Origin: a virus
Lineage: Duplodnaviria > Caudoviricetes
Virus record (IMG/VR): IMGVR_UViG_3300003886_000003
Coordinates: 1 to 62,043 of that record
Direction: 5' to 3' (one strand)
DNA length: 62,043 bases
Of the stretch, positions 6,610-59,071 are shown one piece after another. Position 1 is the stretch's first letter. Every line of letters begins with the position of its first letter. The notes under the pieces were generated by a model that did no database searches, had not been told where the DNA came from, and saw only the letters and a list, made by a program, of their open reading frames with translations. The position numbers and the translations under genes were made by a program.

Positions 6610-6789
6610 CTAGCAGTTCCCTGTGTTGTCGTAGATAGGGTTTTCAGAATCGCTATTCAGGATGATACGGCATATTGGCCCCGCCGGGTCTTCATGCAAG
6701 CAGGCAGGAGTCATTATATTAATTTCCAATATGCCATCCGTATCCGATTTGTGTACAGTAATTTTAAAGTCTTTTGATTTGATTGTCAT
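6610..6789 (-). CDS. Hypothetical early protein
   Basis: CAACACA leader plus GAGG RBS before ATG 6789. Confidence 0.6.
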   Translation of the reverse strand: MTIKSKDFKITVHKSDTDGILEINIMTPACLHEDPAGPICRIILNSDSENPIYDNTGNC

Positions 6790-6833
6790 GGTGTGTGCCT
6801 CTTTGTGTTGCTGACGAATTGAGTGTGCCAGGG

Positions 6834-7508
6834 TTAGAAACAGTCTCTGAGTGTCCATGGTTCATCAATATAGCCTTGTGCCTCATCGTGCAGTTTCTGA
6901 ATTTCTATATTTACTTTAAGGATGGTGGCACTTAGCGCGTCGCTTTTTTTAGTTGCCTCTTCCCGCAATTCAGCGGCGCGAGTTTTTGCGTCCTCTTTCA
7001 TGGTGTATTCACATTCTTTTTCGGCGTCGAATTGTGCCCGGCCATCGGCCTGTACTGCCGCTAGGTGCAAGCCTTCATCAATGCCAGTGGTGTCTGTGCC
7101 ACCTTTTTCTCCCAGCACATAATCAAAGTCAATAAGTGCAGCGCTTTCCGTGCCTGACCACGTGTCACAGTATCCGATAACGTATACCGGGCATCCCTTG
7201 CGTGCTGGTAGTTGCCACACAGCACCCCGGTAGGTGTCAGCGTTACCGGAATCATTGCGGTTATACCAGCCCTTGTGTCCAAGCCGTATAATTTCATCGG
7301 CGTACTTGACAAAGCGCAGCCCCGATTTTTCAGTGCTTTCAATCCATCGCTTTTTAGTGTCTTCAATTTGTGGATTGTAGACACTGGCAGGTTTATGGGA
7401 GGTAACCGCCTTGTGTTTTTGACGAATCAAAGATAGTACAGCGCAAGCGGTCAAGTGTGGAAGATGGGCGCGTGTTGCTTTAAAGCGGGTATATTTGCTT
7501 GTGGTCAT
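6834..7508 (-). CDS. Hypothetical early protein
   Basis: 224-aa ORF with CACAACACAGGA leader. Confidence 0.75.
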   Translation of the reverse strand: MTTSKYTRFKATRAHLPHLTACAVLSLIRQKHKAVTSHKPASVYNPQIEDTKKRWIESTEKSGLRFVKYADEIIRLGHKGWYNRNDSGNADTYRGAVWQLPARKGCPVYVIGYCDTWSGTESAALIDFDYVLGEKGGTDTTGIDEGLHLAAVQADGRAQFDAEKECEYTMKEDAKTRAAELREEATKKSDALSATILKVNIEIQKLHDEAQGYIDEPWTLRDCF

Positions 7509-7532
7509 GGTGTGCGTTTCCTGTGTTGTGTA

Positions 7533-7622
7533 AATCCAGACAGCGCCCCCAATGTTTACAGCCAGTCACAACACAAGCCATCGGGGGTACTGTTTCGGGC
7601 TGTGTGCCCTCATCAGTGGATT
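7533..7622 (-). ncRNA. Type I hammerhead ribozyme HH1
   Basis: AAUCCA-CUGAUGA-GGGC(ACACA)GCCC-GAAA-CAGUACCCCCGAUG...CAUUGGGGGCGCUG-UC^-UGGAUU; full core and three stems; predicted cut between 7539 and 7538. Confidence 0.9.
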
Positions 7623-7692
7623 AATCCTGTAGCGCGAATGCCAGTATTATAAAGGCAAATACTAGCAGTGAGTATGTTTCTACCCCTGACAT
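7621..7692 (-). CDS. 23-aa hydrophobic peptide
   Basis: GGGGGG RBS; MSGVETYSLLVFAFIILAFALQD; stop overlaps HH1 stem I. Confidence 0.45.
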   Translation of the reverse strand: MSGVETYSLLVFAFIILAFALQD

Positions 7693-7708
7693 TTGATTAC
7701 CCCCCGTG

Positions 7709-7867
7709 TTAGTTGTTCCAGTCTTTGCAGCATCGTGTTGATAACCATAATTCGCCGTCAAGGTATGCCTGCCTGTATTCATTTAACATTTTAGCCGCTT
7801 CCTGGCGGGTTCTATATTCGTCAATTGTTTCCGTGACACCCTGGTATTTATAATTTATGTATGTCAT
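7709..7867 (-). CDS. 52-aa early protein (not in ORF track)
   Basis: CACAACACA leader; MTYINYKYQGVTETIDEY...CCKDWNN. Confidence 0.7.
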   Translation of the reverse strand: MTYINYKYQGVTETIDEYRTRQEAAKMLNEYRQAYLDGELWLSTRCCKDWNN

Positions 7868-7896
7868 GTTTCAAACCCCGCTTGTGTTGTGGTTTA

Positions 7897-7956
7897 AGTC
7901 TATACAATGCCCATCAGTGGGGCATTGTTTCACGCTTACGCGATCATCAGTAGACT
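7897..7956 (-). ncRNA. Type I hammerhead ribozyme HH2
   Basis: AGUCUA-CUGAUGA-UCGC(GUAA)GCGU-GAAA-CAAUGCCC(CACUGAU)GGGCAUUG-UA^-UAGACU; cut between 7903 and 7902; first stem II pair is U-U. Confidence 0.82.
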
Positions 7957-8389
7957 AAGCGGCTTTTATTTCTCTTAGTGTTTTGGGTTCAAAATACAGG
8001 TCAATTTCTATGCTGTGTTCTATCAGTTCATCAATTGAGATATACCCCAGCTCCCCACCATGGCCAAGATTAGCAAACCCGAAAGCCTGGAACTGTTTGT
8101 CTTTGTCTAATGGGTGATCGTCGTCTGATCCTGCATCTTTTTCCAGTATGTACCAGTCCATACCACCATTAAAATAATGCAGGTGTACAATGGCAGCGTC
8201 GCCCTTGCCATCTTGTTGGCAGGTTTTCGGCATGTCGGCAATGAGCGCGGCCAGCTTTACCACCTTGTCAAAAAAATATTGTTTTTCTTCGCCGTGAAAG
8301 GTGGAAGTAATTGCAGCCAGTTGGCGCTTGCTGATAAAAGGTTTAAGCGTGTTGATTGCCTGGTGTGCGTCTTGTATTGTGGATTCCAT
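7955..8389 (-). CDS. DUF2958-like early protein
   Basis: HYF..GMDWYILE.D...AFGFANLG..GELGYISIDEL...IEIDLYFEPKTL pattern. Confidence 0.65.
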   Translation of the reverse strand: MESTIQDAHQAINTLKPFISKRQLAAITSTFHGEEKQYFFDKVVKLAALIADMPKTCQQDGKGDAAIVHLHYFNGGMDWYILEKDAGSDDDHPLDKDKQFQAFGFANLGHGGELGYISIDELIEHSIEIDLYFEPKTLREIKAA

Positions 8390-8414
8390 GTTAATACCTC
8401 TGTGTTGTGGTTTA

Positions 8415-8474
8415 AGTCTATACAATGCCCATCAGTGGGGCATTGTTTCACGCTTACGCGATCATCAGTAGACT
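8415..8474 (-). ncRNA. Type I hammerhead ribozyme HH3 (identical to HH2)
   Basis: Same sequence as HH2; cut between 8421 and 8420. Confidence 0.82.
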
Positions 8475-8763
8475 AAGCGGCTTTTTTGAGGTCGGTCGGT
8501 TCCTGGGTATGCCATTCGCGGGTTTTTGTGTGCATCCATTTGCGTGCGATGATTTGCAGACCGTTGCCAGTGTCAACGCCGAACGTGAAGACAGTGTAAG
8601 CGCCATCAGTTCGGCGTGTGGTTGTGTGTTCCACTAATACCTCTGAGTTTTTAGCGCTTGTGCCGACTCTCACAGTAACATCGGCTGTATCTTTCGCACC
8701 ATAAGATTTTCCGGTTTTATATATGCAGGAATTGATAACGTTCCATATTGGGTATGATTGCAT
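8473..8763 (-). CDS. Hypothetical early protein
   Basis: CACAACACAACACAAGGA leader; MQSYPIWNVINSCIYK. Confidence 0.7.
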   Translation of the reverse strand: MQSYPIWNVINSCIYKTGKSYGAKDTADVTVRVGTSAKNSEVLVEHTTTRRTDGAYTVFTFGVDTGNGLQIIARKWMHTKTREWHTQEPTDLKKAA

Positions 8764-8797
8764 GATTGTTTTTCCTTGTGTTGTGTTGTGGATGGTA

Positions 8798-8826
8798 ATT
8801 TTATCAGATTTATTTGATAACTGCAA
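8798..8826 (-). promoter_or_regulatory. Sigma70-type promoter with internal inverted repeat
   Basis: TTGCAG-17 nt-TAAAAT; TTATCA-N8-TGATAA (8801-8820) fills the spacer. Confidence 0.6.
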
Positions 8827-8841
8827 TGGATTGTTGACGGA

Positions 8842-9180
8842 CTAGCTTAATTCTATATCAAGTGTGTTGCAAATATCATAAGCCAGGAATTGCGCCGCGC
8901 TATCGTCGTCGCGTTCCAGTAGTCGCCGAACTAACACGGTCAGCGATTCCATCGATATGATACAGTTTAATCGGTTTACCCATAGCGAATCATCATGGGT
9001 ATAACTGTCACCTCTTTCTGGAACGTAACAGGCTTCCAGGTGCCCATCAATTCCTTGATTGACAGCCATCATTATTGTGTCGATGTCCTCTCCCACCATT
9101 GTCATGGTATAGGCTTCACTTTGTGATTCCGTAATTAACTTTTTTAATTCGTTTGACCAATCGCCGCTATAGTATTTCAT
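8842..9180 (-). CDS. Hypothetical acidic early protein
   Basis: CACAACACAGGAG leader. Confidence 0.7.
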   Translation of the reverse strand: MKYYSGDWSNELKKLITESQSEAYTMTMVGEDIDTIMMAVNQGIDGHLEACYVPERGDSYTHDDSLWVNRLNCIISMESLTVLVRRLLERDDDSAAQFLAYDICNTLDIELS

Positions 9181-9238
9181 GGTTAATACTCCTGTGTTGT
9201 GTGTTGTGTTTTAAAAAATTGCAGCCAGTAAGGTAGAA

Positions 9239-9835
9239 CTACCCCCACTGGTCGGCCATCGCCAACGCTATGCCCGAATATGTCTCGCTTCGTAGCTTCC
9301 ATCGGTCAGCCGATGGGCCTAGCTTGTTCTGTCCGCTATCTGTCTGATTCTCCCAACGCGGTAAGCCATTGACTACTCGCGGGGGTATTTCTTCAGTTGG
9401 TTTTAAGTTTGGCAAACCCTTCAACCATAGCCCGGTTCGCTTGCTTGCATTGTGTCCAAACTGATAGGGCTGTATATACTGGTCGGCTTTTCTGATTCGC
9501 GTACCGATACAGCCTACCGGATTTTCAATGCAGACTTTTGGAATATGGCTGGAAAGACGAATTATATCATGGACAAATTGCAGCGCTTTTTCTGTTTTTT
9601 CTTTTCGTCCTGGGGTGCGACCATTCCAGTGTAACCCGCTACTACATAGGTATGTACAGGGTGGATGGATGATCAGCATATCCCATTCATGACGAATCAT
9701 TACTGATAGAACATCATCAACAATATGATATTTTGAATTGTTAAAAAGCAAATCGCATGACCAAGATTTATGGCCAGTCAGTCTAAAGGCATCGCGGACA
9801 ATTCCGCTATGTTCACAACCTATTAATATTTTCAC
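9239..9835 (-). CDS. Short phage DNA cytosine methyltransferase-like protein
   Basis: LIGCEHSG (motif I-like), HPPCT (motif IV PC), IENP (motif VI), KRTGLW. Confidence 0.75.
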   Translation of the reverse strand: MKILIGCEHSGIVRDAFRLTGHKSWSCDLLFNNSKYHIVDDVLSVMIRHEWDMLIIHPPCTYLCSSGLHWNGRTPGRKEKTEKALQFVHDIIRLSSHIPKVCIENPVGCIGTRIRKADQYIQPYQFGHNASKRTGLWLKGLPNLKPTEEIPPRVVNGLPRWENQTDSGQNKLGPSADRWKLRSETYSGIALAMADQWG

Positions 9836-9921
9836 TGGTTAAATTGTCCCCATTAAATAAGCAAAGCCTAGCGAGTATGTCGCAAAAATAATAAACATTA
9901 CTATTTCATCAGCTTTCATTT

Positions 9922-10179
9922 TTATATCTCGCTATTAACAATTTCAGTTATCAGGCTGTCCAGCATGTAGCAATATTCAATACCCGCCGTTGCTTCAGTT
10001 TGGCGACGGATATCACTTGCCTGTCTGATTGCGCGTTCAGTCACATTAAATTTACCATTGATGGGGTATAGGTGGCTTTCATCCTGTTCACGGTAAAGCC
10101 TGTTAATGCAGGCAATGTGTGCGTTGCCGTTAAGGTGATCGGCTTTGTCTGCTATTTGTAATGGTGTCAATTGTTCCAT
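9922..10179 (-). CDS. Hypothetical early protein
   Basis: CACAACACAGGAG leader before ATG 10179. Confidence 0.65.
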   Translation of the reverse strand: MEQLTPLQIADKADHLNGNAHIACINRLYREQDESHLYPINGKFNVTERAIRQASDIRRQTEATAGIEYCYMLDSLITEIVNSEI

Positions 10180-10249
10180 GTTTAGCGCTCCTGTGTTGTG
10201 CTGTGTTTTAATACAATAGCCCCCTTGCACAAGGCTATCATTTAAAACT

Positions 10250-10636
10250 CTAGCGGCCCATGTGAGATATAATGGCTTGTGCTGAGCATTTATAGCCATG
10301 TTTGCGCGTATCTTCCAGCATAATGCAGTTTTTAGGCTTTGCGGTATCAAGACCAATAATGGTAAATACCTTGTTATTCATTTTAACAATTTTTCCCAGC
10401 CATTCAGGGTTCAATTGATAGCTTGCTGCATACAGTTTGAAGTCGTCGCCATGTCTCCCCAGCCCGGTTTTTCCCTTGGTCTGAAATTCTATGGTCATTT
10501 TATAATGACTGTCACCATAGCTCCCAGACTTACGCGTGATAGTAATACCGTGCTCAAGCGCCAACTGTGTTAATAACTCCATTGTATCATCGCCGATTCT
10601 GTTTGCTGTCCGCTTGTCAAAGTTTTCAATTGTCAT
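10250..10636 (-). CDS. Hypothetical early protein
   Basis: CACAACACAGGAG leader. Confidence 0.7.
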   Translation of the reverse strand: MTIENFDKRTANRIGDDTMELLTQLALEHGITITRKSGSYGDSHYKMTIEFQTKGKTGLGRHGDDFKLYAASYQLNPEWLGKIVKMNNKVFTIIGLDTAKPKNCIMLEDTRKHGYKCSAQAIISHMGR

Positions 10637-10663
10637 GGTTAATACTCCTGTGTTGTGTTGTGT

Positions 10664-11023
10664 TTAGAAATACCCCTGATCAGGGTCATGCAATGATTGA
10701 AATAACTCATCATCATCGTATTTTGCATCTTTATTAAATGATAGCTTTGGTAAAATTTCCATGTCCCCCGACCAAAATAGTTTTATACCCCAGTCGCGTT
10801 TTTCTTCCTCTGTCATATTGGTTGTATCTTCGCTGTACGGGGAGTTTTGCTCTGCTATCCAGACATAAATATCTACCCCGCCGAATATGCCGTAGCCATC
10901 ATAGGCAGGTTCACATATCGGCGCACCTTTCGGCTGTATAAGATATACCGGCTTGCTTTCCCCGGTATGCTTGTTTCGTATTGGTTCCTGTGTATCGGCT
11001 GTAGTAAATGAAAAGAATCCCAT
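10664..11023 (-). CDS. Hypothetical early protein
   Basis: AAGGAG RBS; MGFFSF...YDGYGIFGGVDIY...DPDQGYF. Confidence 0.7.
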   Translation of the reverse strand: MGFFSFTTADTQEPIRNKHTGESKPVYLIQPKGAPICEPAYDGYGIFGGVDIYVWIAEQNSPYSEDTTNMTEEEKRDWGIKLFWSGDMEILPKLSFNKDAKYDDDELFQSLHDPDQGYF

Positions 11024-11036
11024 GGTGATTGCTCCT

Positions 11037-11303
11037 TTAGAATTGTAATGATGTTTCGCTAGTGCGTAAGTATTCAGGAACAAGGCTTTTTATGTCTGAA
11101 AACATAGCATAATAGTCGATTCTTCCAATTGTGCCGTCGTCAAATTCGTACGCGTACAACCAATTATGATCGCTGATAAATTTATGGATTATTGCGGTAG
11201 AATATGCCCCCGCCATAAATAGATTGTTATTTGCTTTTTGCATGGCCGTGTTTGCTACTCCTTCAGCTATGCTTTCAATTTCTATTTGATAGTCTGTAGT
11301 CAT
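11037..11303 (-). CDS. Hypothetical early protein
   Basis: CAACACAGGGG leader. Confidence 0.6.
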   Translation of the reverse strand: MTTDYQIEIESIAEGVANTAMQKANNNLFMAGAYSTAIIHKFISDHNWLYAYEFDDGTIGRIDYYAMFSDIKSLVPEYLRTSETSLQF

Positions 11304-11404
11304 GACGTACCCCTGTGTTGTAACGTTTTGAATACAATAACAATAGCCTTGATTAGCACGTAAGCGGCTAAGCCTGTTATAAGGGGATATATAGAATAGT
11401 GCAT
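11300..11404 (-). CDS. 34-aa single-TM peptide, first gene of the early operon
   Basis: CACAACACAGGA leader; MHYSIYPLITGLAAYVLIKAIVIVFK; ATGA overlap with next gene. Confidence 0.5.
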   Translation of the reverse strand: MHYSIYPLITGLAAYVLIKAIVIVFKTLQHRGTS

Positions 11405-11437
11405 TGATATACTTCCTGTGTTGTGCTGTGAGTTTTG

Positions 11438-11467
11438 AGAGTAACACAGGCAGTATACACTTTTCAA
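11438..11467 (-). promoter_or_regulatory. Putative early promoter
   Basis: TTGAAA-18 nt-TACTCT with extended TG; overlapped by AAGTGT repeats. Confidence 0.45.
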
Positions 11468-11886
11468 CACTTTTGTGCATTATCTTACACTTATTTACCT
11501 ATGAAAAAGTCGACACTTTTTTGCCCCCTTCCATATTTTCTGTATGATTTATGTGATGAATGTTAATATTCTATAGGTAATACAGCAAGTTACGCGTGCG
11601 TGTATGCGTACACCTTATAATAACACGCTCCCCGATTGCTGGTTATACCCTCCCCCCGGTACAAATTCCCCCCGGATATCGTGTTAGTGCGCGGCTGTAA
11701 ATTTTGGAAGCACTACCAGGGCGCGGGCTGGCTGGAAATTCCTGGTCATTCGAGATGAAAAGAGTCTCATACAATCGTGTCAGGCTGGGAACAGATATCG
11801 GGGGGAGCAAGGGCCGAGCCTATCTGATCCACCCTATCTCTCGGAGCTACAGAATTCCCGATCCCTGAAGGGAAGTCATCATATAT

Positions 11887-11950
11887 ATCTGATAAAAAAT
11901 TTTTATGCTATCCACAGCAAATCTGACAAAAATTTTTTATTATCCACAGC
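11887..11950 (+). repeat. Tandem imperfect ~31-bp repeats ending in DnaA-box-like 9-mers
   Basis: ATCTGA(T/C)AAAAA..TTTTAT..TATCCACAGC twice; TTATCCACA at 11940-11948. Confidence 0.6.
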
Positions 11951-12018
11951 CACTGAAATTTGACTTGTACACAGTAATTTGCGACGCTCAAAACATCAAA
12001 CAACCAGGAGATGGTGTT

Positions 12019-12189
12019 ATGGCAGACAACGGTTTTCCAGTTCCACAGCGCAAGCCAAGGGTGAAGCGGCTGAGCGGTAGATCGGTTGCTCAAGCAGTGG
12101 CCGGTACGGAACAGCCTTACCCGGTCTATCAGTTTTCACGCAGAGTGTTTGTAGAACGGCCCAAACACAATCCATTCAAGGGGCTGTAA
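12019..12189 (+). CDS. Small basic hypothetical protein
   Basis: AGGAG RBS; abuts the terminase small subunit start. Confidence 0.5.
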   Translation: MADNGFPVPQRKPRVKRLSGRSVAQAVAGTEQPYPVYQFSRRVFVERPKHNPFKGL

Positions 12190-12990
12190 ATGGCCACTAA
12201 AAAACGCGTGGGTGGTGCTCGGAAGAAGACTGTAGAGACAATTACAAAGCGCCTCGGTAGACCCCCCAAAGAGCTGAAGAAACTCGGTAAGGAAACTTGG
12301 GACGAGTTTATATTGATGACCACCAAGGGCACCAAGCGTGCCGTTGCACTGGAAGCGCTGCAAATAACCAAGTACACCTATGATGCTTATTTGATATCGC
12401 ATGTGACGGCAGTTGAACAGGTTCGCCGTGCTGATCAGATATGGCTCAGACGCAACTGGCCGTTGGAGCAGATTGAAGAGATACTGGTGTTGATCGCGAT
12501 GGGCAAGACCATGAAGCAGGCCGGTGAGCTGTTGTTTCTGGACAATGTGGAGATGGTTGGGCTGTATCGAATACTGTTGAAAGACCCGCAGATCAGGAAG
12601 TTGTATGACGAGGCGCGGGAGATGCAGGCTGAGGCGTGGGCTGATGACACGATTGATATTGCTGATGACGGGCGCAATGATACCTACATTAAAGAGAGCC
12701 GGAATGGGACTGAGTACGAGGCGGTGAACTTTGACAACATTCAGCGCAGTAAGCTGCGGGTTGATTCGCGGCGCTGGATCATGGCGCGGCTTCATCATCA
12801 ACGCTTCGGGGATCGGATCAAGCAGGACATTGAAGGGAGCATGGTGGTCAATCATGCCGACCAGTTGACAGCGGCGCGTCAGCGCATGGAGAAGGCCCAC
12901 AAGCAGCGCAAGAAGCTGGGCACTGGCACGCCAGGCAACGTGGTAGACAAGACCATTACTGATCTGCCACCCACCAAGAGTACCCACTGA
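12190..12990 (+). CDS. terS: Terminase small subunit
   Basis: YDEAREMQAEAWADDTIDIADD...RSKLRVDSRRWIMARL...FGD (Sf6-type TerS pattern); directly upstream of TerL. Confidence 0.85.
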   Translation: MATKKRVGGARKKTVETITKRLGRPPKELKKLGKETWDEFILMTTKGTKRAVALEALQITKYTYDAYLISHVTAVEQVRRADQIWLRRNWPLEQIEEILVLIAMGKTMKQAGELLFLDNVEMVGLYRILLKDPQIRKLYDEAREMQAEAWADDTIDIADDGRNDTYIKESRNGTEYEAVNFDNIQRSKLRVDSRRWIMARLHHQRFGDRIKQDIEGSMVVNHADQLTAARQRMEKAHKQRKKLGTGTPGNVVDKTITDLPPTKSTH

Positions 12991-12994
12991 CCCG

Positions 12995-14616: not shown

Positions 14617-14617
14617 C

Positions 14618-15596: not shown

Positions 15597-15599
15597 GAT

Positions 15600-21973: not shown

Positions 21974-22444
21974 ATGGCAGAGAACATACAACGCGGCCTC
22001 GATGACAAGGGTAATCCAACACTGGAAGTGACCGACGATCATATTGATGTGCCGGAAAAACCAACGCAGCCTGTAGAGCGCCTGGCACCTGTGCCAGAGA
22101 GCACAGTCACAGTTCGTGGTGAGGGTGTTGGTGGCAGTACCGTCATGACAGCCAGTGAATACAAAAAGTATGATGCCGGTTGCAGAGCAAAGCAGGCGAA
22201 AGAAAATGAAGTGGCTGAAGCTGCTGAACAGGAAGCTGCTGAAATTGAAGCGGCTGAAGAGGCTGAGGCGGCTGAAGCGGCTGAGCTAATTGAAATGGAA
22301 GCGGCTGAGGCGGCAGAGCTTGCTGAACTGGAAGCGGCTGAAGCGGCAGAGATTGCTGAGAAGGAAGCGGCTGAGGCGGCTGAGTTGGCAAAACTTGAAG
22401 CCGACCTGGACGGGGATACAACCCAAATATCAGGAGAACAGTAA
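21974..22444 (+). CDS. Acidic Glu/Ala repeat protein
   Basis: Repeated EAAEAAE(I/L) helix. Confidence 0.65.
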   Translation: MAENIQRGLDDKGNPTLEVTDDHIDVPEKPTQPVERLAPVPESTVTVRGEGVGGSTVMTASEYKKYDAGCRAKQAKENEVAEAAEQEAAEIEAAEEAEAAEAAELIEMEAAEAAELAELEAAEAAEIAEKEAAEAAELAKLEADLDGDTTQISGEQ

Positions 22445-22445
22445 A

Positions 22446-49280: not shown

Positions 49281-49281
49281 G

Positions 49282-49963: not shown

Positions 49964-49964
49964 G

Positions 49965-53379: not shown

Positions 53380-53467
53380 TGGGTGGTCCGGTTCGCCATC
53401 CCCGGTTGTAGCGAATATTATGCAGGGTTAGATACCATGCGCTAGACATGCTCTGCAATACCACCCA
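53380..53467 (-). ncRNA. Structured intergenic RNA / terminator downstream of SSB
   Basis: UGGGUGGU/ACCACCCA closing stem, internal hairpins, followed by U6. Confidence 0.4.
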
Positions 53468-53479
53468 AATCCTCATCCT

Positions 53480-54064
53480 TTAGTCGTCGAGGAATCCCCC
53501 GTCATCAACGCCGTCGTCATCATCGATGTCAACGATGTCCATTTCTTCGGCTTCAGCAGGCTTGGCACCAAACGCTGTGGAGTCTTTATTAAACTGCACA
53601 ATGCGCAGATTACAATTGACTCGCTTACCGAAATCATTATCCATCACCCATAAGGTAATGTTCGTATTGACATAGCACCCTGAATACGGTCTGCCACTTG
53701 CCTCATCCAGTTCAGCCTTGTTGCGATCAAGAATCTTTGGCTTTGTCTGGTTGGACGTGCGAATGTAGAACATACCCGCGTACCCATCATACTCAATGCC
53801 ATCATCATCAGCGTCGCCAAAACAATACTCCAACTTCTTCACTGGAATTTTGTCTGCGCCCCCATAATACTCAGAGAGGATTTCCTTGGCTGTTTTCTTG
53901 ATGGTGCTGATCATCTTTGCATGATCCTTGCGCGAGGGGTCCATCAAAAAGGTAGCTTCATATCGTGGGGTTTGACCCTGACGAAACGCCTTTGGTGTGA
54001 ACAGCCGTGCAAATGAAAGTCGCACCTCTTTCAGTTGAATAATGTCACTCGTTACTCCTGCCAT
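53480..54064 (-). CDS. Single-stranded DNA-binding protein (DUF2815 / gp2.5-like)
   Basis: VRLSF..LF, YSGCYVN, VQF..D...FG, acidic tail. Confidence 0.9.
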   Translation of the reverse strand: MAGVTSDIIQLKEVRLSFARLFTPKAFRQGQTPRYEATFLMDPSRKDHAKMISTIKKTAKEILSEYYGGADKIPVKKLEYCFGDADDDGIEYDGYAGMFYIRTSNQTKPKILDRNKAELDEASGRPYSGCYVNTNITLWVMDNDFGKRVNCNLRIVQFNKDSTAFGAKPAEAEEMDIVDIDDDDGVDDGGFLDD

Positions 54065-54090
54065 CTTACTTCTCCTGCGTTAACGCGCTA

Positions 54091-54710
54091 TCTGCGCTGG
54101 TTATAAAATCATCTTGGTTGGTTTAATACTGTGCCCCCTTCCCTGCCAGTGTTTGGGCCTTTTTACAGTATCTACAATAGTGTAGTTAATTATTATTTCG
54201 CACCCGCAAGGAATAAGTGGTGCTACAGTTGTTCCCGCTGGCCGCAAACCGCCATACAGCTCAATAGCCTCCCGACGTGCAATTTGCTCGGTAAAGCGCA
54301 GTGGTAATTTTAATGCACCGGGAAGCATGTGATCCTTTTTAACCCATCCAACACCCTTGCGGTTATTAGGTAGGTGCATATCTAAAATTAAAAAGGTGTC
54401 TCCCTCTTTCAACGAGAGCAGCGCATCCCGAATTACTATTTCTTCCAGTTGCATCTTAAATGGGTTAAGTATGCTCCCCTTGATACCACCAACAGAAAGA
54501 AGCTGGCTTTCCAAGTCGCCCCCAATTTCAGTATAGTATATAGCGTTCCCATTTAACTCGAAGTTTTTAGGTGTGGGTTCCATAGGTAGGCTTAGCCCAG
54601 CTACAGGCATAGCGGCTGACGCGCCTGCCACGCCCAGTAGTTTTAGAAAACCGCGCCTACTTATTTCCATTACCATAAAACGCTCCTTTTCTGCGCTGGT
54701 TATAAAATCA
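54091..54710. repeat. 21-bp direct repeat (54091-54111, 54690-54710) flanking the Tat-motif gene
   Basis: TCTGCGCTGGTTATAAAATCA occurs twice. Confidence 0.85.
54101..54676 (-). CDS. Protein with twin-arginine (Tat) signal motif
   Basis: SRRGFLK plus hydrophobic stretch LLGVAGASAA; AGGAG RBS. Confidence 0.7.
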   Translation of the reverse strand: MVMEISRRGFLKLLGVAGASAAMPVAGLSLPMEPTPKNFELNGNAIYYTEIGGDLESQLLSVGGIKGSILNPFKMQLEEIVIRDALLSLKEGDTFLILDMHLPNNRKGVGWVKKDHMLPGALKLPLRFTEQIARREAIELYGGLRPAGTTVAPLIPCGCEIIINYTIVDTVKRPKHWQGRGHSIKPTKMIL

Positions 54711-54899
54711 GTTGCTCTTGATAGGTTTTACTGTGAGTGATTTCCTGCTATTAAACGCATAAAATAGCTGGTCGTTAGGATCAAGCTGCCCTGACCAGTT
54801 AGCAATTGCATCACGAAGGTACTCTCTAATTTCAGACACGTTGTACCCCGCTGGCATAGAAACTGCTACTTCAAATTTTTGTTTTCTATCTTTTTGCAC
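54708..54899 (-). CDS. Hypothetical protein
   Basis: ORF track. Confidence 0.5.
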   Translation of the reverse strand: MQKDRKQKFEVAVSMPAGYNVSEIREYLRDAIANWSGQLDPNDQLFYAFNSRKSLTVKPIKSN

Positions 54900-55018
54900 T
54901 CTATAAACATCCTAATACTGGTGGGCGTCCAGATATGTATTCAAACCCCCGCTGGTCGAAGGTACGGAGTGGGAAAAACACAACAAAAACCCACTTTTGA
55001 ATTTTAACACCCATAAAC

Positions 55019-55222
55019 TTAATCATCTCCCTTATCAAAATCAGCTTCAGGAAATTCATGCCACCCATGACATAGCTCAGTGTCCTCAACTTTACGGTTT
55101 CCTATGCGGTCAAACTGCACAAGTGATATTCCTTTGATGTTATGGTGTGGCCGTATTAGCGCACTGCATCCTTGAAATACAGATATTGTGCCAGTGTACT
55201 CCGCGTGCCACATGTCAGTCAT
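55019..55222 (-). CDS. Hypothetical protein
   Basis: Overlaps the DUF2800 stop. Confidence 0.55.
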   Translation of the reverse strand: MTDMWHAEYTGTISVFQGCSALIRPHHNIKGISLVQFDRIGNRKVEDTELCHGWHEFPEADFDKGDD

Positions 55223-56444
55223 CTAAAAAACTCGTATCGTCATCATCCAGGTCTTCCATTTCATCAGTGTTCGCTTGATACACTTCACGCGGGTCGCTGC
55301 CTAGCACTAAGACTGCTTTGCCAGCAGGCTTTATGACTTCAGCCAGCAGGTCTTCATTCTTCTTGCCCATTACTTTTTCAGCAGCCGGTATGCCAATGAG
55401 TTTTTGAGTAAACATGTCGGCCACTTTTTTGAATTTCTTTGAAGCCCGCATCATTTTTTCTGCAGCCCCGTCATTACGCCATGTCCTGTTAGACCGGCCT
55501 GAAACCATCTTCAGTGGTAGCTCATCCGGGCCTATGACTTCCTGGCCCCCTTGCACCTTGGTCATACAGCTTTCTTCAATGTCGTTACACCATGAGCGTA
55601 TGGTGCCTAAGTTAGCGAATGAGTCACCCAGTTCTGCAAGGCTCATGGTGTTGACATCAATAACCTCATCCATCTCGTCACTCATCTGATTGTGGACCCA
55701 CTGTGTACGTGCGTTGCAATCCAGCTTGCCGGGGCAAAACCGGCACCAATCCCCAGGCTTAAACTCAGCACCTTCACCTGTAATAGCAATTATGGATTGT
55801 GGCTTGGCAGTTGTCTCAGCCCACTCAATAATTTCACTGGCTGGTATAGTCCACTCATCAATGTGATCAAGGCGGGGTTGGCAGATATTAAGCTGAAAAG
55901 TATCAATCTCGTATAAGTGCCCCAGTTCCTGAATCACACCCAACCCGTACAATCTCAACTGAGTATTGTCAACTGCGAACTCCTTCACACCCTTGCCCAT
56001 TTTAAGATCAGTAATGGTACAGATACCTTCATCTGTGTTGATACCAATACGAATGTCATCAGACGTGCCAAAGCCCAGTTCCACCCAAAAATCATAGTGA
56101 ACGCGCAGCTCAAAGAATGCGTCGCCGTCAAAGCTATTCACATAGTCGAGAAAAACCTGAATGGCATCAGCGAATGCAGCATCACAAGTGAAGGTATATC
56201 CATCGATGGTTTCGGTGTGCCCAATGTACTTAACAGCCGGTACGTTTTCAGCGCGGCAATACTCTGATATGTTGTGCCCGAAGGTTCCCTCAGCAGCAAA
56301 TATACTCGTGGTGTCCGGCATGTCTTTGGTGTACAGCACTGACGCTGTACAGTTGATCCAACGCTTACCGGCTGACGGCCCTAACGGTGAGTGCTCAAGA
56401 TCATCAGTGACACGTTTTACAGCATCTTGCACTTTACTCGTCAT
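55215..56444 (-). CDS. DUF2800 family Cas4-like PD-(D/E)xK exonuclease
   Basis: HS.LGPS...RW..C, EGT..H, FGTSD, DLKMGKG, QL.LY, QPR, CRFC....C. Confidence 0.9.
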   Translation of the reverse strand: MTSKVQDAVKRVTDDLEHSPLGPSAGKRWINCTASVLYTKDMPDTTSIFAAEGTFGHNISEYCRAENVPAVKYIGHTETIDGYTFTCDAAFADAIQVFLDYVNSFDGDAFFELRVHYDFWVELGFGTSDDIRIGINTDEGICTITDLKMGKGVKEFAVDNTQLRLYGLGVIQELGHLYEIDTFQLNICQPRLDHIDEWTIPASEIIEWAETTAKPQSIIAITGEGAEFKPGDWCRFCPGKLDCNARTQWVHNQMSDEMDEVIDVNTMSLAELGDSFANLGTIRSWCNDIEESCMTKVQGGQEVIGPDELPLKMVSGRSNRTWRNDGAAEKMMRASKKFKKVADMFTQKLIGIPAAEKVMGKKNEDLLAEVIKPAGKAVLVLGSDPREVYQANTDEMEDLDDDDTSFLDD

Positions 56445-56784
56445 GGCCAGCACCCCCGCTATTAACAGCTAAGTGACTACGTTTAGCGCCCACAGATGCA
56501 CACATTGAATTGACATATATAATCATGCCGGGGTCACGCTCATTAACCATCTTGAAAAATAGATCGATTGTATTATCACAACACTGTGAGTACGCGACCC
56601 ATACCTGTTTACCACGCATGTTCATGTCGTCGAGATTGACGCACAGTTCTCGCAGTGCGTCATCCCCCCGATCAAACATTGTTTGAAGCAGTGACATTGT
56701 GCCTGGGTGCCCTTCAGAAACCTCACGCATAACTGCCTGAATGTCACCGTCAAACTGTATTTTATGCCGACGGATTTTAGCCAT
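56434..56784 (-). CDS. Hypothetical protein
   Basis: SEGHPG...LDDMNMRG..VW..Y..C pattern. Confidence 0.65.
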   Translation of the reverse strand: MAKIRRHKIQFDGDIQAVMREVSEGHPGTMSLLQTMFDRGDDALRELCVNLDDMNMRGKQVWVAYSQCCDNTIDLFFKMVNERDPGMIIYVNSMCASVGAKRSHLAVNSGGAGHDE

Positions 56785-57140
56785 CAGTCCGGCATCTTGT
56801 CAGTGCAAGCGTCAATAACTTGTTGGTACTTCACTTCATCCAGGTTGCCTAGTGTTGAAGCGCCGTGTGCCTTGAGTATTGACTTGGCTTGTGCAGGCGT
56901 AGTGGCTTGCTGCAGTGACTGTAATGCTTCACGCACAGCCTGCTTGCTCGGTGCATCCTCAGCGGGTGTCTCTTTCGGCTTGCCAACTACTTTTTCATTT
57001 GGCTTACTCTTTTTAGAAGATGTTGCCTTTCCTGTTTTACCAACATCACTTGTTGCGGCAACTGCACCGCTACTCGCTCCGTTTTCCAGTGCTGTTGCGA
57101 TACGTTCCAGCGCTTCGACGCCCCGTTCCATTAATCCCAT
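56784..57140 (-). CDS. Hypothetical replication-module protein
   Basis: GGAG RBS; LERIA.ALE, Lys/Pro linker, IL..HGA..L..L...KY (usual neighbour of DUF2800). Confidence 0.7.
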   Translation of the reverse strand: MGLMERGVEALERIATALENGASSGAVAATSDVGKTGKATSSKKSKPNEKVVGKPKETPAEDAPSKQAVREALQSLQQATTPAQAKSILKAHGASTLGNLDEVKYQQVIDACTDKMPD

Positions 57141-57159
57141 TGTACTTTCTCCATTGTTG

Positions 57160-57390
57160 TTAACACGCACATCTTTCTGGTATCGACATGAACCAGCAAA
57201 CCCAATAATTCTCATGATACTCAACCGGGATGTCAGTATACGGCAGACTTATCCCTCTTGGCATCACAAAAATATCAAAACCGCCTAAACTGTCCGTTTT
57301 TCTTTCTGATTTCCTCACCATTACCCTCATGCCTGACTGCTTATGCTTGCGCTTGATGGCATTCAACTGGCACAGGTTGCAATCAGTCAT
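57160..57390 (-). CDS. Hypothetical Cys-containing protein
   Basis: CNLC...CAC. Confidence 0.6.
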   Translation of the reverse strand: MTDCNLCQLNAIKRKHKQSGMRVMVRKSERKTDSLGGFDIFVMPRGISLPYTDIPVEYHENYWVCWFMSIPERCAC

Positions 57391-57640
57391 TGCTTTCCCC
57401 TGGAAATGGCGGCGATATCATATTACCTCCCCGCCCGTGTTTCCATTTTTTAGGGATCGGGCCATCGGGCCAGTCGCCATTGATACAGGATTCAAACACG
57501 AAGCGCATACCCTGAGTGGTCATATTCACATCGTACCGGTAAGCAAATCCATGCTCGGCAAGCAGGCCACCGATCTGATCCGCGTAGTCCTTGGTGACAT
57601 CATCAATCTGATCCTGTAGCGTGTAGCCGTGCTTCTTCAT
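57383..57640 (-). CDS. Hypothetical protein
   Basis: Overlapping start/stop. Confidence 0.6.
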   Translation of the reverse strand: MKKHGYTLQDQIDDVTKDYADQIGGLLAEHGFAYRYDVNMTTQGMRFVFESCINGDWPDGPIPKKWKHGRGGNMISPPFPGESND

Positions 57641-58314
57641 GGCTCATCATTAAAGTAGACTGGATTGCCAGCACCATCAGTGCCTACACATCTTCCTTTT
57701 GGAACGTCTTCAACCAGGATGGGAGCCATCGCCGGTTTCACCAATTTTATCGCCTCGAAAATGACAATCTCGCAGCCATCGCTCGCTACACATTTGCGTG
57801 CAGCTTTTTCAGCCTCTTCATAGCTGTCATAAAATTTATTCATGTCTCTGGACCGTTTTACTCCATGCACTGTGTCAGCCCCATGAATTTTGAATTTGTG
57901 TAATTGCCTCATATCCTTTTTCTCCTGTGATTTTAATAATACAAAGCTAATCGAGCTATTGTTGGATGATTCAATGTGCTTTGCAATTTCCAGGGTGACA
58001 ACTTTTGTGTCTTTGCTGTAGACTCGCCGGTAAAAATCAGCCGCACCAAGCCCCAAGCACTTGACCCAAGAAGTGCCCGCTGTATAGTCATGAGGGGAGC
58101 GAGTATCAGCCATGAACCACTTCCAGTCAGGGCGATCAACTCGTGAGATAATACAATGCTTATTGGATACTCGCCGGTAGCCCTGCTCCATAAGCTCTCT
58201 TGCTTTCTCCCGCATCTTAGCATTACGCGCAAGTTCAATACTCTCTTGGATACTCATCTCACAAAACTTACTGTATGGAAAATTGCCGGGTGCATCCCAA
58301 AGCTGACCGGTCAT
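57637..58314 (-). CDS. Hypothetical protein (possible two-gene fusion)
   Basis: Internal AGGA RBS plus ATG at MRQLHK. Confidence 0.6.
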   Translation of the reverse strand: MTGQLWDAPGNFPYSKFCEMSIQESIELARNAKMREKARELMEQGYRRVSNKHCIISRVDRPDWKWFMADTRSPHDYTAGTSWVKCLGLGAADFYRRVYSKDTKVVTLEIAKHIESSNNSSISFVLLKSQEKKDMRQLHKFKIHGADTVHGVKRSRDMNKFYDSYEEAEKAARKCVASDGCEIVIFEAIKLVKPAMAPILVEDVPKGRCVGTDGAGNPVYFNDEP

Positions 58315-58658
58315 GGCCCTGTTCTTTCCCTGACTACTTTAGCCAGTTCCTCGCTCGCATTAGCACCTGCTTCAGTGACAAACTTACGCAGCTCACTAAC
58401 AATTATCATCTGTTGCTCGGATACTTCTTTTTCTGACCTGCCAGATTCCTTGGCTATTTTTCGGAGAATATCGCGGGGAAGCCTTGCATGGATATCAATG
58501 TATGTGGGGATATACATTTCCAGCATCAGTAGTACGAGTAATGATGGGCAATCAATATCCTCACACCGCTGCTCAAGCCACACTACTGCACTTTGTGCCA
58601 GCTCCATTGCGGTGTGAAAGTCATCTGTACCAACAACTTGCTGTCTGTATTTTTTCAT
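58311..58658 (-). CDS. Hypothetical protein
   Basis: Overlapping start/stop. Confidence 0.6.
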   Translation of the reverse strand: MKKYRQQVVGTDDFHTAMELAQSAVVWLEQRCEDIDCPSLLVLLMLEMYIPTYIDIHARLPRDILRKIAKESGRSEKEVSEQQMIIVSELRKFVTEAGANASEELAKVVRERTGP

Positions 58659-58897
58659 TATTCACCGTCCCTTATATAGTCATCAACTTCCTGCTTGTCA
58701 GTGCCGTACAGAATATAGTATGGATCGACTGGCGTGTTTTCATCAGGGACAGGCTGACCGTAATTGCCATCATATTCACACTCATAAGCAGTGCAATAGA
58801 ACTCAAGAAATTCTTCAGCGTTGGACCGCTCATCAGACTCAGCGGCATATAGTGGGAAGGAAAGTAGCAGTGTTATTAATAGTGCTAGTTTTAGCAT
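58658..58897 (-). CDS. Small secreted acidic protein
   Basis: GAGGA RBS; signal peptide MLKLALLITLLLSFPLYA. Confidence 0.6.
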   Translation of the reverse strand: MLKLALLITLLLSFPLYAAESDERSNAEEFLEFYCTAYECEYDGNYGQPVPDENTPVDPYYILYGTDKQEVDDYIRDGE

Positions 58898-58919
58898 CAG
58901 CGTCATCCTCGTTAGCATT

Positions 58920-58947
58920 AAAAGAATGGCCCCTTTCGAGGCCATCC
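58920..58947 (-). terminator. Intrinsic terminator of the candidate sRNA
   Basis: GGAUGGCCUC-GAAA-GGGGCCAUUC-UUUU. Confidence 0.7.
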
Positions 58948-59038
58948 TGACCAAAGCACAAACCCTCACAGGGAGTTTTTGCACTGTACCGGGACACAAC
59001 CCCCGGCATTTACACAACACATGGAAACACCATGAGCC
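58920..59038 (-). ncRNA. Candidate trans-acting antisense sRNA (~120 nt)
   Basis: Lies between promoter and terminator; several hairpins; seed UGUGUUGUGUAAAU complementary to early-gene leaders. Confidence 0.65.
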
Positions 59039-59041
59039 GTG

Positions 59042-59071
59042 ATCATATTATAAAAATACTTTTCATGTCAA
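59042..59071 (-). promoter_or_regulatory. Sigma70-type promoter
   Basis: TTGACA (59071-59066), 18-nt spacer, TATGAT (59047-59042). Confidence 0.7.

What the first reader, a model, noticed from the sequence alone, without database searches (positions are those of the whole stretch)
6620..59071. Candidate RNA circuit: ribozyme-segmented early mRNA, shared C/A-rich leaders and one antisense sRNA
Seen: (a) three hammerheads between early genes; (b) 11 early genes with a (CA)CAACACA motif just upstream of the Shine-Dalgarno; (c) a promoter- and terminator-bounded RNA about 10 kb away on the circle whose seed is the reverse complement of that motif. Each predicted cleavage site lies only about 8-11 nt upstream of a leader motif. 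Inference: self-cleavage cuts the polycistron into units with accessible 5' leaders, and the sRNA, made from the promoter at the head of the replication arm, switches off the whole early regulon at translation. That would be a protein-free early-to-middle switch. I do not know of a described phage system combining all three parts, but I could not search the literature.
Basis: partly seen in the sequence, partly recalled or inferred. Interest (0 to 1): 0.92.

Follow-up and report, generated by a model that had tools for sequence, protein, structure and literature searches.

The report
Ribozyme-cut phage early operon with antisense RNA
A complete phage genome has an early operon carrying three hammerhead ribozyme motifs and a shared CA-rich ribosome-loading leader, plus a small structured RNA elsewhere that is antisense to those leaders; the first two parts are known kinds, and the RNA switch is plausible but unproven.

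Summary
All three observations are in the sequence. (a) A hammerhead descriptor finds exactly three type-I motifs, all sense and intergenic in the leftward early operon (0 of 300 shuffles; 0 hits in 193 unselected loci, 2.0 Mb). One is canonical. Two are identical copies with a U·U next to the core. Rfam calls none. (b) CAACACA precedes the start codon of 11 of 18 genes in that block and 0 of 76 elsewhere. (c) A consensus promoter, a very stable fold (z -4.0) and a terminator bound an RNA of about 115 nt. Its 5' end is antisense to the whole start region of one early gene (27 of 32 positions) and to other leaders over 9-10 nt.

Clustered hammerheads in phage operons are published. CA/ACA leaders are known translation enhancers, and the same leader heads genes in 26 of 26 unrelated phage loci. 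Hammerhead plus CA leader recurs in six other lineages (control 0 of 11). The small RNA is also the terminated leader of the replication operon. It is absent from five related genomes, which also lack the ribozymes and leaders. No expression data were available. A targeted antisense brake is likelier than a global protein-free switch.

The parts
11452..11507 (-). Candidate promoters of the leftward early operon (TTTTCA-17-GATAAT and TGCACA-16-TATACT, each 9 of 12)
   Evidence: Weak consensus matches; the region as a whole is not above the shuffle expectation (15 found, 13.5 expected).
11402..11423 (-). CA leader and start codon of g1 (34-aa hydrophobic ORF). An upstream CCUGUGUU can pair with AACACAGG.
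   Evidence: The hairpin fold has z -1.44, which is not significant.
11301..11320 (-). CA leader and start codon of g2 (88 aa)
10634..10660 (-). Double CA leader, GGAG and start codon of g4 (128 aa, weak HicB-like PHROG match); part of the 31-nt repeated start region
10177..10198 (-). CA leader and start codon of g5 (85 aa)
9178..9206 (-). Double CA leader and start codon of g7 (112 aa); reference copy of the 31-nt start region, which g4 matches at 94%
8761..8788 (-). Double CA leader and start codon of g8 (96 aa)
   Evidence: 16-nt antisense match with one mismatch to the small RNA.
8415..8474 (-). Hammerhead 1, type I. Core CUGAUGA, then U-CGC-GUAA-GCG-U, then GAAA. Stem III has 9 bp and stem I has 6 bp. 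Predicted cut after A8421.
   Evidence: The minimum-energy fold gives the three-way junction. U·U at 10.1/11.1.
8387..8407 (-). CA leader and start codon of g9 (144 aa, phrog_5203), 11 nt after the hammerhead 1 cut
7897..7956 (-). Hammerhead 2, identical to hammerhead 1 (exact 85-nt repeat, 7883-7967 and 8401-8485). Predicted cut after A7903.
7865..7889 (-). CA leader and start codon of g10 (52 aa)
7533..7622 (-). Hammerhead 3, type I, canonical core (CUGAUGA, GGGC-ACACA-GCCC, GAAA, GUC then cut). The stem III domain is 56 nt long. Predicted cut after C7539.
7567..7576 (-). UUGUGUUGUG at the tip of hammerhead 3 stem III; a second element complementary to the CA leaders
   Evidence: Inverted repeat I16 with the g8 leader, 15 nt at 87% (13 of 15).
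7505..7535 (-). Start region of g11 (224 aa, unknown function): AUUUACACAACACAGGAAACGCACACCAUGA. This is the best predicted target of the small RNA.
6787..6810 (-). CA leader and start codon of g12 (59 aa); shares ACACCAUGA with g11
6605..6628 (-). CA leader and start codon of g13 (102 aa, DUF5983)
59042..59071 (-). Sigma-70-type promoter TTGACA-18-TATGAT at the head of the replication arm
   Evidence: 11 of 12
58918..59036 (-). Candidate small RNA and 5' leader of about 115 nt: four hairpins, with an unpaired GU-rich stretch between hairpins 1 and 2
   Evidence: -47.6 kcal/mol, z -4.03. No Rfam family. No similar DNA in the phage collection.
59008..59036 (-). Segment antisense to the g11 start region (27 of 32 positions; 14 nt perfect at 59021-59008)
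58918..58948 (-). Terminator-like hairpin (11 pairs in the fold) followed by a U-run, 25 nt before the first gene
   Evidence: Not listed by the terminator scan.
58658..58897 (-). First gene of the replication arm (79 aa, signal-peptide-like by eye), directly after the terminator
59129..59446 (+). Divergent gene (105 aa) that looks Cro-like by eye; conserved in relatives. Its candidate promoter overlaps the small-RNA promoter.
   Evidence: 27-42% identity in 8 related loci. No Pfam or PHROG match.

Best explanation
The leftward early operon (about 11,450 to 5,545, minus strand) is a lineage-specific accessory module built on two known RNA devices.

(1) Three type-I hammerheads lie in the sense strand between genes. 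Self-cleavage would release g9 and g10/g10b as separate messages. It would give the g9, g10 and g11 messages a 5'-OH end 8-11 nt before their leader.

(2) Eleven of 18 genes carry a CA-repeat (ACA-rich, G/U-poor) block directly 5' of the Shine-Dalgarno. I read this as a translational enhancer and unstructured spacer. It loads ribosomes and cannot pair with the ribozyme next to it. Many unrelated phages use the same leader, with or without ribozymes.

(3) The strong promoter at the head of the replication arm first makes a highly structured RNA of about 115 nt. It ends at an intrinsic terminator 25 nt before the first replication gene. Its 5' 29 nt are an antisense copy of the whole start region of g11, the gene that follows hammerhead 3. 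Its unpaired GU-rich stretch matches the other CA leaders over 9-10 nt.

I think this RNA is most likely both a leader/attenuator of the replication operon and a trans-acting antisense repressor. Its main target would be g11, with weaker GcvB-like effects on other leaders. That makes it a brake on part of the early module, not a global switch.

Shown here: the sequence features and their statistics. Inferred: cleavage, enhancer activity, transcription start and stop, pairing in vivo, and any timing.
For: Hammerheads:
- Three hits and no others; 0 of 300 shuffles; 0 hits in 2.0 Mb of unselected natural DNA.
- All are sense and intergenic.
- No minus-strand terminator-like site lies in 5500-12200, which fits one polycistron.
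- Clustered hammerheads flanking genes in prophages were shown to cleave in vitro (PMC3088659, passages).

Leaders:
- 11 of 18 starts against 0 of 76.
- Mean ACA count in -30..-1 is 3.2 against 0.55-0.86 in the other gene classes.
- ACA/CA repeats next to the Shine-Dalgarno are translation enhancers, and the paper's Discussion cites an earlier report that ACAA repeats work even without a Shine-Dalgarno (PMC3879156, abstract, Introduction and Discussion).
- The 18-19-nt leader CACAACACAACACA(N)GGAG occurs in 26 IMG/VR loci. All 26 have an ATG 3-13 nt after GGAG.
- A hammerhead followed by CACAACACA: 20 of 37 pattern hits are full hammerheads, in six sequence families. The reverse-complement control motif gives 0 of 11.
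- Phage G002 has three hammerheads and five CA leaders with no Shine-Dalgarno.

Small RNA:
- Promoter 11 of 12; fold z -4.03 with the seed unpaired.
- 14-nt perfect antisense match, the best in the genome, E 0.033.
- 27 of 32 positions over the start region.
- Cofold gain is -30.9 kcal/mol for g11. It is -22.3 (g4), -21.7 (g8) and -19.0 (g12). It is -4.3 to -10.6 for six leaders without the motif.
- The similarity to g11 stops right after the start codon, as expected for an antisense regulator of initiation.
Against: - No RNA data: no sequencing run was listed.
- Rfam does not call the hammerheads.
- Hammerheads 1 and 2 fail the published rule that 10.1/11.1 must pair (PMC3088659). Being identical, they give no covariation.
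- The small RNA has no homologue: nhmmer and blastn find nothing in 14 related loci, and blastn finds nothing in the phage collection.
- By eye, none of the six syntenic intergenic regions I read shows a promoter, a structured RNA and a terminator in that order.
- Five related whole genomes lack the hammerheads, the CA cluster and every early-left ORF of 100 aa or more. Co-occurrence therefore rests on one genome.
- The same DNA read on the + strand looks like a CA leader with an ATG and a 16-codon ORF. Relatives L053 and L059 have a CA leader in front of the Cro-like gene at the syntenic place. The complementarity could be a relic.
- One of 200 shuffled queries reached the alignment score.
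- The ranking of the leaders against the seed is circular, because the seed was found through the motif.
- The terminator scan did not list the hairpin.
Confidence: 0.42

Rival explanations
1. The small RNA accumulates and shuts off translation of all eleven CA-leader genes. Ribozyme cleavage exposes the leaders. Together they give a protein-free early-to-middle switch.
For: The seed is unpaired. It matches 9-14 nt in all 11 leaders, and all 11 rank within the top 14 of 94 start regions. Seeds of that length suffice for GcvB on CA-rich sites (PMC3879156, Introduction). The RNA, the leaders and the ribozymes are present together here and absent together from five relatives.
Against: Only three of the 11 leaders follow a ribozyme. 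The RNA's promoter is a better consensus match (11 of 12) than the early operon's (9 of 12), so nothing makes it late. CA leaders occur widely without any such RNA. Outside g11, g4, g8 and g12 the predicted gains overlap those of leaders without the motif: g10 is -10.6 and g2 is -12.5, against up to -10.6. There is no conservation and there are no expression data.
Confidence: 0.12
2. The RNA acts only in cis. It is a promoter-proximal terminated leader that gates the replication operon, by antitermination or attenuation, as with lambda 6S RNA/tR' or HK022 put (both recalled). Its complementarity to the leaders is a by-product of an inverted or relic copy of a start-region cassette.
For: The terminator lies 25 nt before the first gene, with no room for another promoter. 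Start-region cassettes are repeated within the genome. The + strand reads as a leader with an ATG. Relatives have a CA leader on the Cro-like gene at the syntenic place. The element is not conserved as an RNA.
Against: The copy has 27 matches and no substitutions, only two indels. It ends exactly after the start codon. It sits in the unpaired 5' part of a very stable RNA. No + strand promoter was seen upstream of it (and reading). No antiterminator protein was found. A cis role and a trans role do not exclude each other.
Confidence: 0.3
3. The CA leaders are aimed at a host factor. A host GU-rich sRNA of the GcvB type, or a protein such as CsrA, S1 or Hfq, reads them. Alternatively the abundant early transcripts act as a sponge for such an sRNA, as the prophage RNA AgvB does for GcvB.
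For: GcvB pairs through an unstructured GU-rich region with CA-rich sites at ribosome-binding sites (PMC3879156). AgvB mimics GcvB targets (PMC12197685, passage; PMC4104026, seen in a search listing only). This operon carries 14 CAACACA copies in its leaders.
Against: The host is unknown: the primase search in genomes gave only distant partial matches. No GcvB-like match was found in the window. Nothing here tests it.
Confidence: 0.08
4. Only hammerhead 3 cleaves. Hammerheads 1 and 2 are crippled copies carried along by an 85-nt duplication.
For: U·U at 10.1/11.1 and a stem II of only 3 bp. The published screen rejected such mispairs (PMC3088659). The two copies are identical, so nothing shows selection on them.
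Against: Three other phage hammerheads (two in L005, one in L013) also have a U after A9. The minimum-energy fold gives the three-way junction. Both copies sit in the typical place, between a stop codon and the next leader.
Confidence: 0.4

Closest known systems
Clustered hammerhead ribozymes flanking genes in prophages (Perreault et al. 2011, PMC3088659; passages read)
   Same: Several hammerheads in the sense strand, between genes of a phage operon, flanking single genes. Proposed to cut long transcripts into gene-length mRNAs. Three such clusters cleaved in vitro.
   Different: This case is type I with a very long stem III in one copy and a U·U next to the core in two. Each is followed 8-11 nt later by a CA-repeat leader. 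I did not find that link in the passages I read or in my searches.
GcvB sRNA and CA-rich/ACA translational enhancers of enterobacteria (Yang et al. 2014, PMC3879156; Sharma et al. 2007 as cited there)
   Same: ACA/CA repeats just upstream of the Shine-Dalgarno. An unstructured GU-rich stretch of a terminator-ended sRNA pairs with them. The sRNA promoter overlaps a divergent regulator gene's promoter.
   Different: No sequence or Rfam similarity to GcvB. Here both the RNA and the targets are phage-encoded. The RNA is also an operon leader. One target is matched over its whole start region.
Antisense RNA control in phages: P1/P7 c4 RNA, P4 CI RNA, P22 sar, lambda OOP (all recalled, not read here)
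   Same: Small phage RNAs that pair with phage mRNAs at or near start regions. c4 and CI act on sites that are not their own antisense strand.
   Different: Those act within one operon or on one or two sites and serve immunity. Here the RNA lies about 10.5 kb from its targets, has up to 11 of them, and no lysogeny genes were noticed.
T4 RegB endoribonuclease and RegA translational repressor (recalled)
   Same: Post-transcriptional shut-off of many early messages through their start regions.
   Different: Those are proteins. Here an RNA is proposed, and nothing shows a shut-off.
Synthetic ribozyme insulators such as RiboJ placed before a ribosome-binding site (recalled)
   Same: A self-cleaving ribozyme sets a defined 5'-OH end just ahead of the ribosome-binding site and decouples it from upstream sequence.
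   Different: Natural, multi-copy and inside a polycistron. Followed by a CA-repeat spacer rather than a hairpin.
Start-associated sequences of Cluster K mycobacteriophages (recalled)
   Same: A conserved short sequence directly upstream of the start codons of a subset of phage genes.
   Different: Different sequence, different host group, and no link to ribozymes or an antisense RNA.

Membership tests
Hammerhead ribozyme, type I | Core C3 U4 G5 A6 N7 G8 A9 ... G12 A13 A14 A15.1-U16.1 H17 (consensus as given in PMC3088659) | tested here: met
   All three sites carry it. H17 is A, A and C.
Hammerhead ribozyme, type I | [quoted passage not shown] | tested here: inconclusive
   Met for hammerhead 3 (G-C at 10.1/11.1). 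Not met for hammerheads 1 and 2 (U·U), unless read as a U insertion after A9, as in L005 and L013, plus one more U.
Hammerhead ribozyme, type I | Match to an Rfam hammerhead covariance model at gathering score | tested here: not met
   0 matches. 15.2-15.7 bits against 48.5 needed. The same models also missed canonical hammerheads in 10 other loci, so the test is weak for this subtype.
Hammerhead ribozyme, type I | Stems I and II held together by a tertiary contact or pseudoknot | not tested
   No candidate contact found by eye. Other phage hammerheads share GGCA in loop II, but these three do not.
Hammerhead ribozyme, type I | Self-cleavage | not testable with these tools
   No sequencing run was listed.
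ACA/CA-repeat translational enhancer | ACA or CA repeats in or just upstream of the ribosome-binding site | tested here: met
   11 leaders with 3-7 ACA triplets in -30..-1.
ACA/CA-repeat translational enhancer | Loss of expression when the ACA triplets are replaced | not testable with these tools
   This needs reporter assays.
Trans-acting base-pairing sRNA (GcvB-like) | Own promoter and intrinsic terminator bounding a short non-coding transcript | tested here: met
   Consensus level only: promoter 11 of 12; hairpin plus U-run in the fold. The likely gene start lies downstream at 58897.
Trans-acting base-pairing sRNA (GcvB-like) | Unstructured seed complementary to several mRNAs at their ribosome-binding sites | tested here: met
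Trans-acting base-pairing sRNA (GcvB-like) | Homology to GcvB or any described sRNA family | tested here: not met
   No Rfam match above noise. No similar DNA in the phage collection.
Trans-acting base-pairing sRNA (GcvB-like) | Conservation, or covariation of seed and targets, in relatives | tested here: not met
   Relatives lack the RNA, the leaders and the ribozymes alike. No close relative could be fetched.
Promoter-proximal terminated leader (lambda 6S/tR' type, attenuator) | Terminator between the promoter and the first gene of an operon | tested here: met
Promoter-proximal terminated leader (lambda 6S/tR' type, attenuator) | A cognate antiterminator protein, or an alternative anti-terminator fold | tested here: inconclusive
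   No Pfam or PHROG match suggests an antiterminator among the 30 different proteins scanned. Alternative folds were not examined.

The most novel reading that the evidence does not exclude
A virulent-type phage runs a wholly RNA-based control layer on an accessory early module. Hammerheads cut the polycistron and leave 5'-OH messages that begin with ACA-enhancer leaders. A phage-encoded GU-rich RNA resembling GcvB, itself the terminated leader of the replication operon, silences those enhancers. It starts with the gene behind hammerhead 3 and so couples the onset of replication-arm transcription to the shut-off of early functions. A second anti-leader element inside hammerhead 3 hints that leader pairing may also tune ribozyme folding.
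Probability: 0.12. Interest if true: 0.85.

Novelty: new variant of a known kind. Interest (0 to 1): 0.6.

Why it matters
What phage hammerheads are for has stayed open since they were found in clusters in 2011. This genome gives a compact test case that can be synthesised. It has three ribozymes, each 8-11 nt ahead of a leader of a known enhancer type, and one candidate antisense RNA with an unusually long match to the message behind one ribozyme.

Two results here reach beyond this genome. First, the CA-repeat leader with a Shine-Dalgarno is used widely by unrelated phages: 26 of 26 loci have a start codon in place. Second, hammerheads are followed by that leader in six other lineages, while a control motif gives none. 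This suggests a natural "ribozyme insulator plus unstructured enhancer" design, as used in synthetic biology.

If the small RNA works in trans, it would be a phage-made counterpart of GcvB acting on the phage's own messages.

Tried and rejected
Searches for close relatives, all without a useful match:
- Early region against the phage collection by megablast: none. By blastn: only the methyltransferase gene.
- g11 protein, the DUF2800 protein and the primase as single queries in IMG/VR: none, or one hit at 30%.
- Primase in the metagenome collection: none.
- The 24-nt hammerhead 1 core in IMG/VR: none.
- Tblastn with the DNA polymerase reached at most 35% identity.

An alignment of 41 primases then reached family relatives at 39-50% identity. 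Five whole genomes from that set were fetched. The closest primases (55-56% in the search listing; 56-59% in the alignment) come from sources whose DNA I could not fetch.

Sequencing runs: none was listed for 5900-11900, and no RNA holder was listed.

Host: the genome-contig scan with the primase alignment gave only distant, mostly N-terminal matches. The host stays unknown.

Function of g11: PHROG families of unknown function only. All protein-atlas hits fell below the level that means anything.

Early proteins against the other hammerhead phages: no homology apart from one weak g9 hit. Those modules are therefore analogous, not related.

Covariance model for hammerheads: MAFFT misaligned the variable stems. 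I built no model and relied on the descriptor and its controls.

RNA duplex ranking with the whole RNA gave meaningless long duplexes. I replaced it with seed-only duplexes and cofolding.

The k-mer scan for anti-leader sites used a crude definition of non-coding (no ORF of 60 aa or more on either strand). It is only weak evidence that G002 lacks a complementary RNA. I did not search the other CA-leader loci for complementary RNAs.

The hairpin in the early 5' UTR is not significant.

Literature: two searches for hammerheads in phage operons or next to Shine-Dalgarno sites and a term search (passages only) of one review of phage sRNAs turned up no description of the three-part combination or of the hammerhead/CA-leader link. 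Subscription journals are not covered. Supplements are closed. The supplementary figures of PMC3088659 may show whether U insertions after A9 or 10.1/11.1 mispairs were tested.

Full report
WHAT THE WINDOW IS. The window is a complete virus record of 62,043 nt whose ends repeat 91 nt, so the circle is 61,952 nt. It has four parts:
- a leftward block of small genes at 11,480-2,114;
- a long rightward structural block at 11,905-47,514;
- a leftward replication arm at 59,020-47,549, carrying DUF2800, family-A DNA polymerase and an SNF2 helicase;
- a rightward block from 59,129 that runs across the ends into a P4-type primase (names and Pfam families).
No tRNA was found.

HAMMERHEADS. Reading the minus strand shows three hammerhead-like sites. 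I wrote a descriptor requiring CUGAUGA, a stem II hairpin, GAAA, a stem III hairpin closed by A15.1-U16.1, a non-G at position 17, and a stem I that joins the flanks.

It finds exactly three sites, all on the minus strand and all between co-oriented genes:
- 8474-8415;
- 7956-7897;
- 7622-7533.

Controls:
- None of 300 shuffles gave a hit.
- None of 193 loci (2.0 Mb) fetched for other reasons gave a hit. One probable false hit arose in 100 kb of control-motif loci.

Hammerhead 3 is canonical: G-C at 10.1/11.1 and a GUC cut site. Its stem III is unusually long. Hammerheads 1 and 2 lie in an exact 85-nt repeat. They have a 3-bp stem II with a GUAA loop, and a U on each side of it. By the published screen this is a mispair at 10.1/11.1 and a reason to reject the hit, unless the gene context is typical (PMC3088659, passages). 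Three other phage hammerheads that I met also have a U after A9.

Rfam calls none of the three. It also missed clear canonical hammerheads in other phage loci, so I give that little weight.

Clustered hammerheads that flank genes in prophages, and cleave in vitro, were described in 2011 (PMC3088659). Part (a) is therefore a new member of a known kind.

LEADERS. CAACACA is twice as frequent as in shuffles (28 against 14.4 +/- 3.8). Sixteen copies lie on the minus strand within 5.3 kb.

On my hand-curated gene list, 11 of 18 starts in the 11,404-5,545 block have the motif 17-26 nt before the start codon. None of the 76 other starts has it (p 4.6e-10). In several genes the whole 31-nt start region is repeated.

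The cut sites of the three ribozymes lie 11, 11 and 8 nt before CACAACACA.

The motif fits a known device. ACA/CA repeats just upstream of the Shine-Dalgarno enhance translation. GcvB silences them through an unpaired GU-rich region. The Discussion of that paper cites an earlier report that ACAA repeats work even without a Shine-Dalgarno (PMC3879156, abstract, Introduction and Discussion).

THE LEADER TYPE IS WIDESPREAD. The pattern CACAACACAACACA(N)GGAG occurs in 26 IMG/VR loci. In 26 of 26 an ATG follows 3-13 nt after GGAG. Only one of these loci has hammerheads nearby.

The pattern "hammerhead core, then CACAACACA within 33-63 nt of GAAAC" gave 37 loci. Of these, 20 hold a complete hammerhead whose cut site precedes the motif. 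They fall into six sequence families, one of which accounts for 14 loci. The same pattern with the reverse-complement motif gave 11 loci and no hammerhead.

One of these phages, G002, is a complete genome. It has three hammerheads and five CA leaders that lack a Shine-Dalgarno. Another, G001, has three hammerheads at 1-kb spacing.

The early proteins of these phages are unrelated to ours. So "hammerhead, then G/U-poor CA leader, then start codon" is a recurrent design and not a shared ancestry. My two literature searches did not turn it up.

THE SMALL RNA. At the head of the replication arm there is a near-consensus promoter. The 119 nt after it fold into four hairpins at -47.6 kcal/mol (z -4.03). 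UGUGUUGUGUAAAU is unpaired in that fold, and a long 3' hairpin is followed by a U-run. The first gene starts 25 nt further on. The same RNA is therefore also the 5' leader of read-through transcripts.

- The best non-self match of this region in the whole genome is a 14-nt perfect antisense match to the g11 leader (E 0.033).
- With two small gaps, 27 of 32 positions match, from 27 nt before the g11 start codon to 1 nt after it (score 38 against 24.0 +/- 2.4; 1 of 200 shuffles reaches it).
- Cofolding predicts a gain of -30.9 kcal/mol for g11, and -22.3 to -10.6 for the other motif leaders. Six leaders without the motif give -4.3 to -10.6.

g11 is the gene right after hammerhead 3. Its function is unknown. 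A second anti-leader element sits at the tip of hammerhead 3's stem III. I cannot explain it.

WHAT WEAKENS THE CIRCUIT.
- The RNA matches no Rfam family and nothing in the phage collection.
- Family relatives exist. Five whole genomes share the probable major capsid protein (65-86% identity), the probable large terminase (56-72%; both named by position and recall), the polymerase (37-59%) and the primase. They lack every early-left ORF of 100 aa or more. They have no hammerhead. They have at most 4 CAACACA in any 6 kb, against 16 here.
- Their syntenic control regions keep the gene that looks Cro-like by eye. By eye, none of the six that I read shows a comparable RNA.
- The three parts are thus present together here and absent together elsewhere. 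That fits a link, but it rests on one genome.
- Read on the + strand, the antisense segment looks like one more CA leader, with an ATG and a 16-codon ORF. Two relatives have a CA leader on the Cro-like gene at that place. It may be a relic.
- The RNA's promoter gives no reason for late expression.
- Only three of the 11 leaders follow a ribozyme.
- CA leaders and hammerheads occur together in G002 without a complementary RNA that I could see. That scan was crude.
- No sequencing run could be found.

VERDICT.
- Parts (a) and (b) are real and belong to known kinds.
- Their pairing across phages is a modest new generalisation.
- Part (c) is a credible antisense RNA with one strong target and several weak ones. 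It is equally an operon leader with a terminator.

My odds:
- 0.42 for a dual leader and targeted antisense brake;
- 0.30 for a cis-only role;
- 0.12 for the global protein-free switch.
Everything about activity, expression and timing is inferred.

Noticed in passing
window 4963-5545: About 580 nt with no ORF split the leftward block. An AT-rich core is flanked by GGGGCAA/GGGCAA-type repeats and a doubled 'cattcgtca'. It may be a replication origin or a second promoter region.
   Followed up: no
window 11896-11950: Two 23-nt direct repeats (83% alike) lie in the divergent junction between the early-left operon and the structural operon. An inverted repeat (24 nt, 88%) links 11874-11897 with 8799-8822.
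   Followed up: no
window 59032-59082 (+): A 16-codon ORF lies behind a CA-leader-like sequence on the strand opposite the small RNA. It overlaps both divergent promoters. No + strand promoter was seen upstream.
   Followed up: partly
window 7567-7576 (-): UUGUGUUGUG sits at the tip of hammerhead 3's long stem III. It is complementary to the g8 and g10 leaders. Its role is unknown.
   Followed up: partly
window 301-353 and 388-440: A 53-nt direct repeat (89%) lies inside the primase gene.
   Followed up: no
window 22243-22362: GCGGCTGAAG-like repeats lie inside a structural-block ORF. They surfaced as a spurious lncRNA match in Rfam.
   Followed up: no
L041 15500-18984 (phage G002): An unrelated complete phage has three hammerheads and five CA-repeat leaders that run straight into ATG with no Shine-Dalgarno. 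Its early 5' leader of about 380 nt carries GUGUGUUGAUG and 'ttgattctct' repeats.
   Followed up: partly
L013 329-381; L035 3449-3485; L038 11819-11855: Rfam finds a RAGATH-5 match and abiF RNA motifs in other hammerhead-bearing phage loci.
   Followed up: no
A3 alignment (G002, L038, G003; by eye also the two hammerheads of L005 in A2): Several phage type-I hammerheads share GGCA in loop II, opposite GCC or UGCC in the 5' strand of stem I. This is a pseudoknot candidate. The three hammerheads in the window lack it.
   Followed up: no
L053 7130-7160 and L059 7050-7080 (+): In two family relatives the Cro-like gene is preceded by CCAACACAGGAA. The CA leader type therefore occurs singly in the family, outside the hammerhead module.
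   Followed up: partly
window 9239-9835 (-) and 2114-2614 (-): The early block includes an orphan DNA methyltransferase (phrog_757, E 1e-54), with no restriction gene noticed nearby. Its last gene looks HNH-like by eye. Together with the many small unknown genes, this suggests (by inference only) an anti-defence or host-takeover module.
   Followed up: partly
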